Assembly: GCF_003704095.1 (NCBI RefSeq)
Contig: NW_020843829.1
Span: forward strand, 372,001-436,000
Reading direction: 5' to 3'
DNA: 64,000 nucleotides
From: Pocillopora damicornis
Lineage: Eukaryota
Shown: piece by piece, positions 24,001 to 30,000 of the stretch
Numbering within the stretch: the stretch's first letter is position 1
Layout of the letters: each line of letters begins with the position of its first letter
Made by a program: the position numbers

Positions 24001-27000
24001 TAAAAAAAATATATAAAAACACACTCAAGTCTGACCTGTTGTTTTAAGTTTCAAATGACTAGTAGATTTATACTAAAATTAGAAGGCTAATTCCTCTTAA
24101 ATGCTATGCATGATAGAAATCTCCAGCTCACAATCTTGTTGTTAAATAGATTTAAATTTTACTAATGTGATAGTTTTTCCTTTTAGGCGTTGTTATTATA
24201 TGCCAATGAGTCTCCTTCACTAATCTTGTCTGTTTAATGAGTGGAAGGCTTTGTTGGTCAAATAGCTAGATCAGTGTCAGTTGCACCTCTCTTTCCTTTT
24301 CTTAGCAAAGAAACATAAACAAACTGAGTGCCTCATCCTAAACACATTACCTTTATTATACCAATTGAGCCAAAAAGATCTTTGATGTCTGCTTCTGTAA
24401 CCGTAGAGGAAAGATTTGAAATGAAAACCTGATCTGTTTCATACTCTTTCCCTGCAAAATCAAAACCAAAAACAAACTCATTTCCATTTGGGGTGATCTA
24501 AACCCAATCACTGTACAGAATGAGAACACCCAATCAATAGGTGCACAATAATCTTGGCAATCACATAGGTAAAAGGTCTCACCTGGATCTTGCTGTCCAC
24601 CTCCAGAAGAGTTACCTGGATTAAAAAAAGGACAAAAAGAACCACTTAGTCATGACAAGAACACTGACAATTGAGATGCTATTTATTATAGCAAATATGA
24701 TTATGTACCATGCCCTGTTCCCTCAAAATCTGTGCCAGTGAAATTGAGGACCCAATACAATCTACCACAATAATGCAACAGCATATTAGAATAACTTCCC
24801 TCAATACCAATCAAACATTCAACAGCACAGTAGTGGCATAAGGCTGCAAAGGACAAATATCAGACAATGTCTCCATTTTGTTTGGACAAAATAGAAATGT
24901 AATCCACCATTTTATTACATTTCCCCTTTTTTCTAAATCATGTTTTTGTCACCAGAAAATACCCTATCTGTCAAACCTGTTGCCACATATCCATTTTATT
25001 CTTTGTTTGGTAAACAATTCTCCCAAAATTATATACAGCTGCAGTTCAGATTTTGTTAATCATGTGCCAATTTTAGTCAGACATTGACCCACAGTCATTT
25101 ACAGCTTTATGTGATTGCCACTTGTTGCGATTGATAAAAACAGAAGGACAAAGTTCCAAGAACAGATCCTCAAGAAGGTTTACAGCAAAGAGACCACTGG
25201 GTAACAAGTGTCATTACTGTAAACAGGGATTCAAATTTCTTTCTGATCAGAAATACCCTCTGCCCTCTGGATAACTGGATTAAGGAAATGCAATTTATGC
25301 AGTCCACAAATTGAAAACCAATAAAAAAAAAAACAACAACAACACAACAACAGAGGCTCAGCTTTGATTTTATAGTTTTGATCATACCAAAGACATATCA
25401 TGCCATTTTTTGTTGGACCTCTAAAGCACAGAACTACTTGCAGTGAAAACCTTAAGAGCGCTATGAGAAGCCCTAAGATTCAGCAAATCCCAGAGAACAG
25501 GTGCTCTTCCCTACCAGTAAGACTTTTCATAATTTTTGACATTTAAGTACCCTGGATGGATCAAAATTCACCACTGGAGGAAGGAAGAGAAGTCAAACTT
25601 CCTTATGACTCACTTAACAGACTTTCTTGATTCTCAAAACATTATCTCAAAAATGTTGTTCAACATTTCAAAAATATTCAACAATACCTGGTTCATGACA
25701 AAAACTGTTGAAAAGTCTTAGAGGTGGTAATTCTCATATGTTTCTTTATGTGGGACATAAAAGTCCCACATAAAATCCCCTTGAGCAATGTTCAACAACA
25801 GTTGCATAAATCCTTAATTACAACATCCTATAAGAGTTTTACATGTAAGGCAAACTAAAAATACTATGATCAGACACTTCTCAGAAGTAAACAACAAAAA
25901 TTAATTGTTAAGATTTGTTACAATCCTTGACAACAGTTTTGAAATACAGGGCAATACAACCAAGCAAATGTTTACTACCACACACAAAGTACACAAGAAC
26001 TCCGGAGCTCAGTGATCAAGACGCAAGCTAATATCAGAGGTCATTTCAGAAACCCATAATTTTGACCAGTGGCCCTAGAAGAACTTTTTGTAAGCTTCTA
26101 ATTTGAATATACCTGAATGACAGAAATTTTAAGATCATACCAAAACCATTATGTTCCGATTCAAAATTGGAATATTACCCAATAGCTTATACAGTAAATG
26201 ATGCCCACACGGATGAAATTCAGACATGAGCAATAACCAAGCAAGTCGAGGAATGTTTAACACTTTCTTATACCAAACAAGATTAAACTCAGTCTTTTGA
26301 CCAATGATAACACCAGCTTTGTTAGCCGACCGGCTGGCGGAGTGATTGAATTACACCACAGACAGCATGTTATAAAACTGCAGGACAGAGCCTGTCTGCA
26401 TCATGTGACTTACCATAACCCATATTACTATTGTATCCACCCGGTCGGCTACCTCCTCTGCCACCGCTGTGTATAGTACCAGTAAATGAATTCAATGATC
26501 AAGAGTAGGAGGACACTGCCTTGTACCACAGTACCTCAATCAACCAGTTTAGTAGCAAACACCAATACTTATTATTAATTTAACCCTTTGACTCCCATGA
26601 GTGACCCAAACAGAAATTCTCCTTACAGTTTCAATAAAATATCAACCAGACAAGCGATGAGAGGAAAGAAAAATATCCATTAGGGGATTATTAGTTGATC
26701 CAATACCAAATTATCCAAACTACCATCATGAGAATTGTATAGCACACAGTAAGGAGAATTACTAATTAGATCTTGGGAGTAGAAGGGATATCTTTTAAAT
26801 GCATTTTAAACTTAGTCAAGAATAACAGTAGCAGGTTGCAAGTTTTGAAGTTTACTGCAATTCTTACATTGTTACAGGAGGAGTGCATTCCAGGAACCAT
26901 GTAATTTTCTATCTCTATGCCATTGAAAAAGTATATAGTAAAACTCCCCTATAACTGTTCAGTTTGGAATTTCAAAGAGTAACTTTACCATTCTAAAATT

Positions 27001-30000
27001 CTCTTCAAATGTGTTAAAAAAATTTTGAAAATAACTTGGTAATCTTGCCACATGTGCAAAGCCAAATTGCCCAGTACATCGACAGCTGCTTCTCTGATCA
27101 CAATAAAAAAATCTATATTTGAGTTAAGAGTGCCCTTTTGAGCAGCTCTAACCTTTCAAATAGATTGCCAAGATATGAAAAATGAAGACCACGACTTTGT
27201 TATGAAACAGGTAAGCAACCTGGTTGATAAGCACGATTCAACATGGCTGCATGCAGAGTAGAAATTTTAACACATTTGAAGACAATTTTCCATCATTCAG
27301 GGTTACTGTTTGAAATCTCCTAACTCAGTCAGAATCATTATTTCATATGATATACTTTTCCAAGGTAGAGAGAAATTTTACATTGTCCCCCAAGCATATT
27401 TCACTGGTAGGCTTTAAAAGTACTCCTTGACCTTTCCCCTAAATAGGATTTTATTCCATCCCCCAATTTGACTCCAAGTATTCTCACAAGCTGTGCTTAA
27501 ACTTTACTGCCACCCACTGAAGATAAAGCTATACTAGCCACTTTTCCTGCATAAATTTTCTTCTGATCAACTATCCTAAGCGCTTTAGATGGAATATACA
27601 GGGTGTGTGGAGTCTGTTCCTTATATGAATGTTAAATAAATTAATAACCGATTTCTTTTAATAATCTTTTACTTAGATCAAGCCAAGTCTTTTCCCAAGA
27701 CCCCTCATCCAAAATTTATCTGTAACTTTTACTTCAAGATTCATCTCTTAATCAAGGACACCACTGCCCAACGTAGGACTTTGAGTAAACCATAAGGGAA
27801 CTTGTGATGTACATGTAACCCCGAAGAAAGCTGTTCATGCACTCAAAACATTTTGAGAGCCCTGGTCACTTTTGAAATTGTCTTTCCAGCTGGAAGTTCC
27901 TCTGTTTATGTGGAACAAATATCTGAGATACCAAGACACTAGAAATATCTTGTGTACCACTTTTTTTGGCATACCCCTCATTGTTTTATTTTTATTTTTT
28001 TCAAAGGCCTATCTTTACCAGTACATTAAAGATAGAGTTAAATCCCTATAGTATTTATAAAATATTACCCTGACAACAAATCCTCTCATTAAATCTTTCA
28101 AACTTGACATTTTTTGTCATCAGCTCTAGGAACAATTTCTACCCTGGTGGGTAAATCCAAGCTCAACCCACTCTTTTCTGAACCCTGCTGTGGTTTTGGG
28201 TGTGGACAACAATTCTATAATGCCTGAACGATTTCATATGCCCAGAATAGTTCCATTAGGATGAGCCATGGATATACCAGTGCCTAAAACCCTCCGCAAT
28301 GAGGTAAAACATTCATCACCCCATTGTGTGAATATCTTTTACACGGTGCACTCTAAGTATGACCACTGTTCACAAGCACAGGAATAGTTCCCTAAAACCC
28401 AAGTTTAATAAAAAGTGCAACAAGGAAATAGCACATCAGCCCTAACTTAGCAATGATTTCAACATTCCACACAAGACAGGATACAAGACAGGATAAACCA
28501 ATTTGCACAATAGAGGAAAATCATCAAATTTCTGGAAAGATTGACAAAAAAAATATTAACTACATTGACCCAAATTAATGTTCCAATTTTTTACAGGTTT
28601 TAGAGAATCATTTTTATTTCACTCTTGAAAATACATTTTGTAAAAATCAGTAATTGTGAAGTGATATGCAAAATTTCACTGTACATTTAAAGGCACCCTG
28701 TTTTAAGGCATGTTGAAATCAACTCCAAGTCTTTCCCATAGGATTTTATCAGAAAGCAAAATAGTGAACATGGCCACACACAAAATAAGTTTGCTTTATC
28801 AACTGAGTTGATCATGTAAATTTACCACCATAAAGCCTTAGCCCTTCACCCCTTACCCATTTGCTCTAACAAATGGATAAACCTTTAAACATCAGCTTTA
28901 GAAACTCTTAATGGTGGCCAAACTAGTTAATGAACTTAGTTGATAAAGCAAAATTTATCTTGAACAACCCCCAAGGACGCAGCACCACAGCTGTTTTAGA
29001 AACTCTCCCCTACAACCCACACACAGCTTACAAGTGCACAATACACACACAGCTCAGATACTAGAAAGATAATCCTATCACTAGCAACAAATACATGTCT
29101 AGGGGTAAAATGTTACAGTTTGCTACAAAACATTTTGCTCCAAAGAGCAGAGGCACCTGTGATTGTAATCATCACAATTGAAAGTCAGTAACCAGTTACA
29201 TGATGTAAATGTATTCAACACCCAAATCCAATTCTTTACCTTCCCTAATGGTTAAACTATACATTGAGAGGGAATTGTTCTTGTTCAAAAACCTGAACCA
29301 CCTGGTTGAATTATTGAGACTACTAAACCTGGGTACAAATTCAACAACAAATTTGAAGTAACAGAAGTTATTGAAATTTAACATTTATCCATATCCCATA
29401 TCGCGGAGAAAATGCTCTGATTAATTTTTAATTGCTATAACAAATTCCTGAGAAAGTTTTGAGCCAGAACAACAATTAAAAGAATGCACACCAGTTTCCC
29501 CCCAACCTTTAACATGCACAGTTCTAAGGAAAAGGTACAATCTTTTTAAATCTAACCCAAAAATCAAGAGGACACATCTCCATAGTCACTGGTAAAGTTT
29601 AGGTGATAGAATGAAAATCAGAACCTACCCTCTTCCTCCTCCATAGCCACCTCCTCCACCTCCTCCTCCTCCTCCTTGTCCATAGGAAGAGCCCTGCTGT
29701 CCATATCCACCACTACTGCGTCCACCATCACCTTGATACCCACCACCTTGGTATCCACCTCCACTGCTCTGACTGCTGCCATAACCACCCTGACCACCAG
29801 ATTGATACCCTCCAGTCTGTTGATATCCCTGTGGTTGCTGGTAGCTTGATCCTCCACTCGCTTGTGAGTAGCCACCACTCTGAGGTTGCTGTTCGTACCC
29901 CTGGTACTGTGTTGAAGATGCTTGCTGGTAGCCACCTGAGCTGCTGTCTGTCTGGTAGCCTGTGTAACCTGTTGAGGCACTCTGGTATCCAGTTGCTGCA

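What the first reader, a model, noticed from the sequence alone, without database searches (positions are those of the whole stretch)
24616..29628. FUS exon-7-like autoregulatory cassette apparently conserved in an invertebrate FET gene
Seen: a 53-nt exon (26466-26414, phase 2 to 1) between the RGG region and the RRM is flanked by the gene's two longest introns (3162 and 1798 nt; all others 116-738 nt). It is followed by a 33-nt exon and then an exon ending in GIIK. Skipping it gives GG|G TAA, an immediate premature stop. Knowledge (from memory): human FUS exon 7 is a short frameshifting exon at the same position, followed by a 33-nt exon, and FUS autoregulates by skipping it or retaining conserved introns 6/7. 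Inference: this feedback architecture may predate the cnidarian-bilaterian split.
Basis: partly seen in the sequence, partly recalled or inferred. Interest (0 to 1): 0.7.

Follow-up and report, generated by a model that had tools for sequence, protein, structure and literature searches.

The report
Short frameshifting exon in FUS-like gene
An invertebrate relative of the human ALS gene FUS has a tiny exon, set between its two longest introns, whose omission would stop the protein early, much like the self-limiting switch known in human and worm FUS, but whether it is used that way here is untested.

Summary
On the minus strand lies a 13-exon gene of the FUS/EWS/TAF15 (FET) family: coding ATG 31482, stop 20935-20933. 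Exon 4 (26466-26414, 53 nt, phase 2 to 1) is flanked by the two longest of 12 introns, 3162 and 1798 nt; the others are 116-738 nt. A 33-nt exon and an exon ending in GIIK follow. Skipping exon 4 reads GG|G TAA.

New here:
- Exon 4 has the weakest polypyrimidine tract of the 12 acceptors.
- An 11-bp GC-rich stem pairs the middle of exon 4 with intron 4 at +81 to +91.
- With exon 4 skipped, the +1 frame from the mRNA's second AUG runs into the normal frame. This is the arrangement published for C. elegans fust-1 exon 5.

Against a regulatory reading:
- FUS-type motifs are not enriched.
- Intron 3 carries mobile-element-like inserts.
- Inherited intron positions alone could explain the layout.

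No transcript data or other animal genomes could be reached, so skipping, retention and intron conservation stay untested. Verdict: a real, FUS-exon-7-like architecture whose function is plausible but unproven.

The parts
20933..31482 (-). FET-family (FUS/EWS/TAF15-like) gene, coding part: 13 exons, 12 GT..AG introns, 441 codons
   Evidence: model, phases, translations exon by exon; exon 6 matches RRM_1 at 5e-6 and exon 11 matches Zn_ribbon_RanBP at 6.8e-7; exon 8 gives 9 of 9 PDB hits to EWS, FUS or TAF15; exon 9 gives 3 of 3 hits to FUS.
29629..30108 (-). Exon 3, 480 nt: S/Y/G/Q-rich low-complexity domain ending in a Gly run and YGGGRG. It ends in phase 2.
   Evidence: 0 of 159 codons have T at the second position.
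26467..29628 (-). Intron 3, 3162 nt, the longest in the gene. If retained it reads GG|G TAG, an immediate stop.
   Evidence: the main-frame ORF ends at 29625; one 224-nt interspersed repeat; local inverted-repeat pairs; no protein family in its ORFs; no Rfam family.
26564..26787 (.). Interspersed repeat (MITE/SINE-like, with inverted ends) inside intron 3. Five other copies lie in the window.
   Evidence: 77-80% identity to 9748-9976, 39605-39806, 7043-7175, 48899-49098 and 19967-20171; inverted arms at 26603-26629 and 26746-26772.
26414..26466 (-). Exon 4, the 53-nt cassette candidate (phase 2 to 1). It encodes (G)GGRGGSRPGGYNSNMGY(G) and contains two GGUGG.
   Evidence: its acceptor has the weakest pyrimidine tract of 12 (Y fraction 0.59, longest run 3), while the donor ATG|GTAAGT matches the consensus at 7 of 9 positions.
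26441..26451 (-). Exon arm of the predicted 11-bp stem (UAGCCGACCGG), exon nucleotides 16-26
   Evidence: perfect inverted repeat, 73% GC; present in both the MFE and the centroid structure; mean pair probability 0.96-0.97 in contexts of 211-953 nt.
26323..26333 (-). Intron arm of the stem, intron 4 positions +81 to +91. The 107-nt loop between the arms holds the exon 4 donor site.
   Evidence: exon-to-downstream-intron duplex energy is -43.3, the best of 13 exons, equalled by 7 of 3000 random sites and 10 of 2000 shuffles.
24616..26413 (-). Intron 4, 1798 nt, the second longest. If retained, a stop follows after 13 codons.
   Evidence: no repeat found within the window; no protein family.
24583..24615 (-). 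Exon 5, 33 nt, phase 1 to 1. It starts GTAAC, and the TAA at 24614-24612 is the stop reached when exon 4 is skipped.
   Evidence: main frame with exon 4 skipped: stop after 1 codon, 186 aa in all.
24351..24451 (-). Exon 6, 101 nt: start of the RRM, ending GSIGIIK
   Evidence: RRM_1 profile positions 1-26 match residues 8-33.
30726..30728 (-). Second AUG of the mRNA (first three bases of exon 2), in the +1 frame. It opens an ORF of 240 codons with exon 4 included, or 418 codons ending at the normal stop with exon 4 skipped.

Best explanation
Exon 4 is the positional counterpart of the short frameshifting exon just upstream of the RRM in other FET genes: human FUS exon 7 and C. elegans fust-1 exon 5. 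It is a weakly defined exon.

Proposed mechanism:
1. At high concentration the gene's own protein binds the GGU-containing exon and the exon-intron stem region.
2. This blocks exon definition, so exon 4 is skipped or introns 3 and 4 are retained.
3. All of these outcomes end the main reading frame within 1 to 13 codons (GG|G TAA, GG|G TAG, or a stop 13 codons into intron 4).
4. The resulting mRNA is degraded or detained, which gives negative feedback on FET protein level.

Shown here: the gene, the exon and intron coordinates, the stops, the weak acceptor, and the predicted stem.
Inferred: positional homology with human exon 7, any skipping or retention at all, binding by the gene's own protein, and the fate of the unproductive mRNA.
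For: **Architecture**
- The coordinates are exact and the two longest introns flank the exon. The probability of this is 1/66 for an exon named beforehand and 1/6 for any adjacent pair.

**Splice signals**
- The exon 4 acceptor has the poorest pyrimidine tract of 12: Y fraction 0.59 against 0.64-0.86, and longest run 3 against 5-11.

**Predicted stem**
- An 11-bp perfect stem at 73% GC joins exon nucleotides 16-26 to intron 4 at +81 to +91.
- It appears in the MFE and centroid structures.
- Its pair probability is 0.96-0.97 in four context sizes.
- The exon-to-downstream-intron duplex energy ranks 1st of 13 exons. It is matched by 7 of 3000 random sites and 10 of 2000 shuffles.

**Same logic in relatives**
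- Human FUS represses exon 7, and skipping gives a stop in exon 8 and NMD. The roughly 3 kb of intron 6, exon 7 and intron 7 is conserved in 38 vertebrates (Zhou 2013, passages).
- Retention of introns 6 and 7 with nuclear detention is reported by Humphrey 2020 (passages).
- C. elegans FUST-1 promotes skipping of its own 38-nt exon 5 (Cao 2021 preprint: passages, section 9).
- 53 and 38 are both 2 mod 3.

**Positional support**
- The 24-residue spacing matches FUS chain 6snj_A.
- The last exon here is a split codon plus 12 residues. In human FUS, deleting exon 15 removes the last 12 aa.
- The exon-8 primer lies where exon 5 maps.
- The exon 5, 7 and 8 fusions to one DDIT3 exon imply that exon 8 is 0 mod 3.
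Against: - No transcript data exist for this organism in any tool, so not one skipped or retained read has been seen.
- GGUG, GUGGU, GGU, UGUG and GGUGG are not enriched in introns 3 and 4 against dinucleotide shuffles (all |z| at most 1.6). The raw GGU density of 18.5/kb, against 11.7/kb in the other 10 introns, only follows G+T composition.
- The 211-nt region around the stem does not fold better than shuffles (z = -1.53; 16 of 200 shuffles fold as well).
- The margin over other G-rich exons is small: -43.3 against -40.0 for exon 3, and -41.1 for exon 10 with its upstream intron.
- The window holds 22 perfect inverted repeats of 11 nt or more within 200 nt, so one touching this exon is not extraordinary.
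- Intron 3 holds a 224-nt interspersed repeat and several inverted-repeat pairs that look like small mobile elements. Part of its length is therefore probably neutral insertion.
- Gaps of about 0.4 and 1.2 kb separate coding pieces of the neighbouring RNF34/RFFL-like gene, so kb-scale introns are not rare here.
- Intron positions are widely conserved among animals (established knowledge, recalled). The exon layout alone therefore says nothing about regulation.
- Even in mouse and human tissue, Humphrey 2020 saw no exon 7 skipping.
Confidence: 0.45

Rival explanations
1. This is ordinary constitutive gene structure. The 53-nt and 33-nt exons are simply inherited intron positions of an old gene. 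The two flanking introns are long because of neutral insertions, exon 4 is always included, and there is no feedback through it.
For: - Two of every three exons give a frameshift when skipped.
- Two adjacent longest introns occur by chance 1 time in 6.
- Intron 3 holds a repeat with five other copies in the window, and inverted-repeat pairs typical of small mobile elements lie in both introns.
- No motif is enriched.
- No known RNA family lies in the introns.
- The donor of exon 4 is a good GTAAGT site.
- Stops on intron retention are the rule for any phase-2 intron beginning GTA/GTG (read from the sequence).
Against: - The weakest acceptor of the gene sits exactly on this exon.
- A stable exon-intron stem encloses its donor site.
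- Two independent FET genes, human and worm, regulate themselves through a short frameshifting exon upstream of the RRM.
- Detected repeats explain only 224 of 3162 nt of intron 3 and 0 of 1798 nt of intron 4. This was a search within the window only.
Confidence: 0.4
2. Exon 4 is an isoform switch as in C. elegans rather than a decay switch. Skipping it joins the +1 frame, opened by the second AUG at the first base of exon 2, to the normal frame. This would give a 418-residue protein with a different N-terminus but the same RRM, zinc finger, RGG and C-terminal signal.
For: -: the +1 frame is open through exons 2 and 3. With exon 4 skipped it runs to the normal stop (418 aa). With exon 4 included it ends in exon 6 (240 aa).
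- Cao 2021, section 9, describes exactly this for fust-1: a 38-nt exon, the +1 frame and a downstream AUG.
- Human FUS carries a 170-codon overlapping ORF shifted by one nucleotide (Brunet 2020: abstract and passages).
Against: - The open +1 frame follows automatically from the composition. 0 of 159 exon 3 codons have T at the second position, so no +1 stop can form.
- TAT-GGN (Tyr-Gly) makes +1 ATGs for free.
- The main AUG has A at -3 and G at +4, which does not favour leaky scanning.
- No evidence of translation exists.
Confidence: 0.1
3. The long introns are long because they hold something else: a non-coding RNA gene, a nested gene or transcriptional enhancers.
For: Only their length, and the fact that 93-100% of them is unique within the window.
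Against: - The Rfam E-value scan of 19000-33000 gave one chance-level match outside these introns, at 23943-24103 with E = 0.31.
- Rfam at gathering threshold over the whole window gave 0 matches, and the tRNA search gave 0 genes.
- None of the 10 longest ORFs in the two introns reached a Pfam cut-off.
Confidence: 0.05

Closest known systems
Human and mouse FUS autoregulation through exon 7 skipping with NMD (Zhou et al. 2013, PMC3814325) and through retention of introns 6 and 7 with nuclear detention (Humphrey et al. 2020, PMC7337901)
   Same: - A short exon that shifts the frame, lying between the Gly/RGG region and the RRM.
- The stop falls in the very next exon.
- The exon is flanked by a large block of intron: about 3 kb in human, 4.96 kb here.
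- The next exon has a length that is a multiple of 3 (33 nt here; inferred for human).
- The following exon opens the RRM.
   Different: - The human introns are known to be conserved and to be bound by FUS. Here neither conservation nor binding could be examined.
- GU/GGU motifs are reported as enriched in the human introns. They are not enriched here against shuffles.
- The human exon 7 and exon 8 lengths were not verified by any search.
- The exon-intron stem seen here has no described human counterpart that I found. The only mention of 'stem-loop' in Zhou 2013 is a reference on tau.
C. elegans fust-1 exon 5 autoregulation loop (Cao 2021, bioRxiv 10.1101/2021.03.22.436400; published in Genetics according to the reference list seen)
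   Same: - An invertebrate FET gene.
- A short exon upstream of the RRM whose length is 2 mod 3 (38 nt there, 53 nt here).
- A +1-frame ORF from a downstream AUG becomes in-frame with the RRM, zinc finger and NLS when the exon is skipped.
   Different: - In the worm the loop is demonstrated with reporters, mutants and co-IP. Here it exists only in silico.
- The worm outcome is a second protein isoform rather than decay.
- Positional homology of worm exon 5 with exon 4 here was not tested, because no worm gene structure was available.
[quoted passage not shown]
   Same: [quoted passage not shown]
   Different: These are different gene families with different exons. They say nothing about this locus beyond making the mechanism plausible.
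altFUS, the overlapping ORF in the human FUS low-complexity region (Brunet et al. 2020, PMC7788448)
   Same: A long ORF shifted by one nucleotide over the low-complexity domain: 170 codons in human, 240 codons here with exon 4 included.
   Different: - Here the ORF starts at the second AUG of the mRNA.
- No sequence comparison was made.
- Its openness is explained by codon composition alone.

Membership tests
FET (FUS/EWS/TAF15) RNA-binding protein gene | N-terminal S/Y/G/Q-rich low-complexity domain | tested here: met
   Exons 2-3 translate to a run rich in S, Y, G and Q that contains no V, L, I or F (exon 2 has one M). 0 of 159 exon 3 codons have T at the second position.
FET (FUS/EWS/TAF15) RNA-binding protein gene | RRM of the FET type | tested here: met
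   - Exon 6 matches RRM_1 at 5e-6.
- Exon 8 gives 9 of 9 PDB hits to EWS, FUS or TAF15, best 2.4e-6.
- Exon 9 gives 3 of 3 hits to FUS, but weak (E 0.064-0.54).
- Exon 7 gives 0 hits.
- Exon 6 alone hit other RRM proteins and not FUS: 32 hits at E up to 1.
FET (FUS/EWS/TAF15) RNA-binding protein gene | RanBP2-type zinc finger flanked by RGG repeats | tested here: met
   Exon 11 matches Zn_ribbon_RanBP at 6.8e-7. Its 5 PDB hits include two FUS chains. RGG-rich exons 9, 10 and 12 are read.
FET (FUS/EWS/TAF15) RNA-binding protein gene | C-terminal basic stretch ending in PY (nuclear import signal) | tested here: met
   The last exon reads QGMRQERRDRPY followed by the stop. That this is the import signal is recalled knowledge, not a call.
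FUS exon-7-type autoregulatory cassette | Short exon, not a multiple of 3, upstream of the RRM, whose skipping puts a stop in the next exon | tested here: met
   53 nt; GG|G TAA in exon 5.
FUS exon-7-type autoregulatory cassette | Flanking introns at the same codon positions and phases as human introns 6 and 7 | tested here: inconclusive
   Only indirect evidence: the 24-residue spacing equals that in FUS chain 6snj_A, the location of the exon-8 primer, and the fusion-frame argument. No human gene structure was available, and the human exon lengths are recalled only.
FUS exon-7-type autoregulatory cassette | Flanking introns far better conserved across species than the gene's other introns | not testable with these tools
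FUS exon-7-type autoregulatory cassette | GU/GGU-rich binding sites for the gene's own protein in the exon and flanking introns | tested here: not met
   There is no enrichment over dinucleotide shuffles in introns 3 and 4. The exon itself has two GGUGG. Binding itself is not testable here.
FUS exon-7-type autoregulatory cassette | Skipped or intron-retaining transcripts exist and respond to the protein's level; decay by NMD or nuclear detention | not testable with these tools
   No expression data for this organism.
fust-1 exon-5-type isoform loop | Exon length 2 mod 3, plus a +1-frame ORF from a downstream AUG that becomes in-frame on skipping | tested here: met
   (418-codon ORF to the normal stop) compared. 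The +1 openness is compositional.
fust-1 exon-5-type isoform loop | The second isoform is made, and the first isoform promotes skipping | not testable with these tools
   Needs experiments.

The most novel reading that the evidence does not exclude
The FET self-limiting module is ancestral to animals with tissues and is still in use in this invertebrate. The module consists of a short exon of length 2 mod 3 just before the RRM, set in long introns, and a low-complexity N-terminus that can be read in two frames. In this reading the exon-intron stem that encloses the donor site (26441-26451 with 26323-26333), next to GGUGG motifs, is the sensor the protein binds. That would make one of the oldest known splicing feedback loops directly dissectable outside vertebrates.
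Probability: 0.25. Interest if true: 0.65.

Novelty: new member of a known kind. Interest (0 to 1): 0.42.

Why it matters
FUS dosage control fails in ALS-linked mutants (Zhou 2013; Humphrey 2020). Which of its two proposed routes matters, exon 7 skipping or intron 6/7 retention, is still disputed.

If an early-branching or otherwise distant invertebrate uses the same exon, the loop is hundreds of millions of years old. Comparison of the flanking introns and of the exon-intron stem across phyla could then show which parts are essential. A simpler single-copy FET gene would give a clean system to test this.

If the exon proves constitutive, the locus is just a well-conserved gene structure.

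Tried and rejected
- **Exon-by-exon PDB searches.** Exon 6 hit only other RRM proteins (32 hits, none FET). Exon 7 hit nothing. Neither could be used to place human residues.
- **Motif enrichment.** GGTG, GTGGT, GGT, TGTG and GGTGG show no enrichment in introns 3 and 4 against 200 dinucleotide shuffles each.
- **Fold of 26290-26500.** The stem is present, but the region is not significantly more stable than shuffles.
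- **Long-range pairing between intron 3 and intron 4 that would loop out exon 4.** None was found. All 6 inverted pairs lie within one intron.
- **Known RNA families and tRNAs.** Nothing was found.
- **Nested genes or transposon proteins.** 0 of the 10 longest ORFs in the introns reach a Pfam cut-off.
- **Tandem repeats.** Only minor ones occur in the introns.
- **Literature on human exon sizes.**
  - Zhou 2013 passages give primers but no lengths.
  - The Kovar review has no gene structure.
  - The myxoid liposarcoma review gives only fusion types.
  - PMC1857848 is not held.
- **Literature on earlier claims of deep conservation.** Searches listed no paper on a cnidarian FET splicing loop and none on a fly caz splicing loop. 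This rests on the listings only.
- **Rejected reading.** That the open +1 frame is itself evidence of selection. It follows from codon composition.

Full report
**Observation**

Reading the minus strand and a script that checked lengths, phases and splice dinucleotides give a 13-exon coding model. The ATG is at 31482 and the TGA at 20935-20933. The model has 1326 coding nt and 441 codons, and 12 of 12 introns are GT..AG.

- Exon 4 is 26466-26414: 53 nt, phase 2 in and phase 1 out.
- Intron 3 (29628-26467) is 3162 nt and intron 4 (26413-24616) is 1798 nt.
- The other ten introns are 738, 559, 131, 551, 116, 646, 457, 359, 122 and 585 nt.
- Exon 5 is 33 nt (24615-24583).
- Exon 6 (24451-24351) ends GSIGIIK.
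- The exon 3/exon 5 junction reads GGG TAA CTC.

Every statement of the finding is therefore correct.

**Identity of the gene**

The joined protein was never assembled for a search or a fold, so no whole-protein match is reported.

| Exon | Search | Result |
|---|---|---|
| 6 | Pfam | RRM_1, 5e-6 |
| 6 | PDB | 32 hits at E up to 1, all other RRM proteins, none FET |
| 7 | PDB | 0 hits |
| 8 | PDB | 9 of 9 hits are EWS, FUS or TAF15, best 2.4e-6 |
| 9 | PDB | 3 of 3 hits are FUS, weak (E 0.064-0.54) |
| 11 | Pfam | Zn_ribbon_RanBP, 6.8e-7 |
| 11 | PDB | 5 hits, among them two FUS chains |

Exons 2-3 encode an S/Y/G/Q-rich domain. Exons 4, 9, 10 and 12 are RGG-rich. The last exon ends RQERRDRPY. 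This is a FET family gene.

Nothing in the window was taken for human. The organism could not be identified with the tools at hand, so 'cnidarian' is unverified.

**Is it more than chance?**

With 12 introns, the two longest are neighbours 1 time in 6. They flank one exon named beforehand 1 time in 66. Because the exon was picked after the pattern was seen, the truth lies between the two figures.

A frameshift on skipping is expected for two exons in three. Immediate stops on retention of a phase-2 intron follow from the GTA/GTG of the donor site. These points alone do not show regulation.

**What the two introns contain**

- An E-value Rfam scan of 19000-33000 found one chance-level match outside them.
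- A gathering-threshold scan of the window found none, and no tRNA was found.
- 0 of the 10 longest ORFs in the introns reach a Pfam cut-off.
- Comparing the window with itself shows one 224-nt interspersed repeat in intron 3 (26564-26787), with five other copies. Intron 4 has none. The window average repeat coverage is 6.7%.
- Several inverted-repeat pairs lie inside the introns. Examples are 26995-27019 with 27265-27289 at 96% complementarity, and 28787-28835 with 28907-28955. They look like small mobile elements, so part of the length is probably neutral.
- No complementarity links intron 3 to intron 4.
- FUS-type motifs are not enriched against dinucleotide shuffles. My arithmetic on that output gives 18.5 GGU per kb in introns 3 and 4 against 11.7 per kb in the other ten. 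That difference follows base composition.

**Features that do single out exon 4**

Its acceptor has the weakest pyrimidine tract of the 12: Y fraction 0.59 and longest run 3. Its donor is a good GTAAGT site.

A perfect 11-bp inverted repeat at 73% GC pairs exon nucleotides 16-26 (26451-26441) with intron 4 positions +81 to +91 (26333-26323).

- The stem is in the minimum-energy and centroid folds.
- It has a mean pair probability of 0.96-0.97 in contexts of 211, 353, 553 and 953 nt.
- The duplex energy of exon 4 with its downstream 150 nt is the best of the 13 exons. It is equalled by 7 of 3000 random sites and 10 of 2000 shuffled introns.

Cautions on the stem:

- The 211-nt region as a whole is not more stable than shuffles (z = -1.53).
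- The margin over other G-rich exons is small.
- The window holds 22 such inverted repeats.

The stem encloses the donor site in a 107-nt loop and abuts GGUGG motifs. It is a lead, not a result.

**Comparison with known loops**

*Human and mouse.* Zhou 2013 (passages) shows several things:
- This block of about 3 kb is conserved in 38 vertebrates.
- Skipping puts a stop in exon 8 and leads to NMD.

Humphrey 2020 (passages) found no exon 7 skipping in mouse or human samples. It found instead FUS-dependent retention of introns 6 and 7 with nuclear detention.

*Worm.* Cao 2021 (passages; section 9) shows that C. elegans FUST-1 promotes skipping of its own 38-nt exon 5. A splicing loop in an invertebrate FET gene is therefore already in print.

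**Positional homology with human exon 7 is supported only indirectly**

- FUS chain 6snj_A starts GGFNKFGG (residues 1-8) and has LGENVTIE at 33-40. The exon 8 equivalent lies at 76-96 and the exon 9 equivalent at 98-129.
- The 24 residues between G8 and L33 equal the count here from the end of exon 4 (...GYNSNMGY) to L13 of exon 6.
- The exon-8 primer of Zhou 2013, translated by hand, falls inside the stretch that exon 5 occupies here. In one shifted frame it contains TGA, which would fit an exon 7 of length 2 mod 3. Which of its three frames is the true reading frame rests on my recall of the protein.
- FUS exons 5, 7 and 8 each fuse to DDIT3 exon 2. For in-frame fusions this implies that exon 8 is a multiple of 3.
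- Deleting human exon 15 removes the last 12 residues. The last exon here is a split codon plus 12 residues.
- The actual human exon 7 and exon 8 lengths were seen in no call.

**A second reading frame**

The mRNA's second AUG is the first three bases of exon 2 (30728-30726) and lies in the +1 frame. That frame is open through exons 2 and 3.

- With exon 4 included it stops in exon 6, after 240 codons.
- With exon 4 skipped it joins the normal frame and runs to the normal stop, 418 codons.

This is the published arrangement of worm isoform b, and it recalls human altFUS. The openness is, however, automatic: no exon 3 codon has T at the second position.

**Verdict**

The architecture is real and matches the FUS exon 7 type. 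Two extra features, the weak acceptor and the stem, point to a regulated exon.

Function is inferred by analogy. I put it at about 0.45, against about 0.4 for a constitutive exon in an inherited gene layout.

**What stayed unchecked**

- Transcript evidence.
- Cross-species conservation.
- Human gene structure.
- The organism's identity.
- The papers' supplements, which were closed. Zhou's Table S3 and Figure S5 and Humphrey's Supplementary Figure S9 may bear on motifs and on binding by the other FET proteins.
- The N runs at 5610-5709, 7192-7304 and 41210-41219 were left untouched.

Noticed in passing
window 26441-26451 and 26323-26333 (minus strand): A perfect 11-bp GC-rich stem between the middle of exon 4 and intron 4 at +81 to +91. 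It encloses the exon 4 donor site in a 107-nt loop, with predicted pair probability about 0.96.
   Followed up: partly
window 30726-30728 (minus strand) and exons 2-6: The second AUG of the mRNA opens a +1-frame ORF over the low-complexity domain. It is 240 codons with exon 4 included. With exon 4 skipped it is in frame with the rest of the protein (418 codons). Its openness is explained by codon composition.
   Followed up: yes
window 26564-26787; also about 9748-9976, 39605-39806, 7043-7175, 48899-49098, 19967-20171: A family of roughly 200-230-nt interspersed repeats with inverted ends (MITE/SINE-like), 77-80% identical to one another. One copy sits in intron 3 and one just downstream of the FET gene.
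   Followed up: partly
window 30109-30667 (intron 2), 22911-23556 (intron 8), 22361-22817 (intron 9): These introns also contain stretches repeated elsewhere in the window: 198, 166 and 50 nt covered. By eye the intron 8 copy resembles sequence near 20330-20540. The family was not characterised.
   Followed up: no
window 31710-32000 (+), 34010-34513, 34929-35282, 36510-36821 (+): An RNF34/RFFL-like E3 ligase gene lies on the plus strand, with SAP_RNF34_RFFL, RNF34L-like_3rd and RING domains. An ORF beginning MGAGG at about 31749, some 270 bp from the FET ATG and head-to-head with it, may be its first exon, which would mean a shared bidirectional promoter. That piece was not tested.
   Followed up: partly
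window 57432-57923 (+): A DIM1/TXNL4A-like (U5 snRNP 15 kDa) protein whose whole DIM1 domain (profile positions 1-133 of 133) lies in a single ORF with no intron. Pfam DIM1 at 7.2e-69.
   Followed up: partly
window 1410-1748 (-), 3717-4043 (+), 62853-63509 (+): Exon-sized ORFs matching Tim17/Tim22/Tim23 (6.9e-14), Der1-like (7.6e-24) and, below the curated cut-off, the HAP1 N-terminal region (2.4e-07).
   Followed up: partly
window 43523-44743 (+): A 406-codon open frame, the longest in the window, with no Pfam family. It is Ser/Thr/Pro/Asn-rich. Its nature is unknown.
   Followed up: no
window 5610-5709, 7192-7304, 41210-41219: Three runs of N, left as they are.
   Followed up: no
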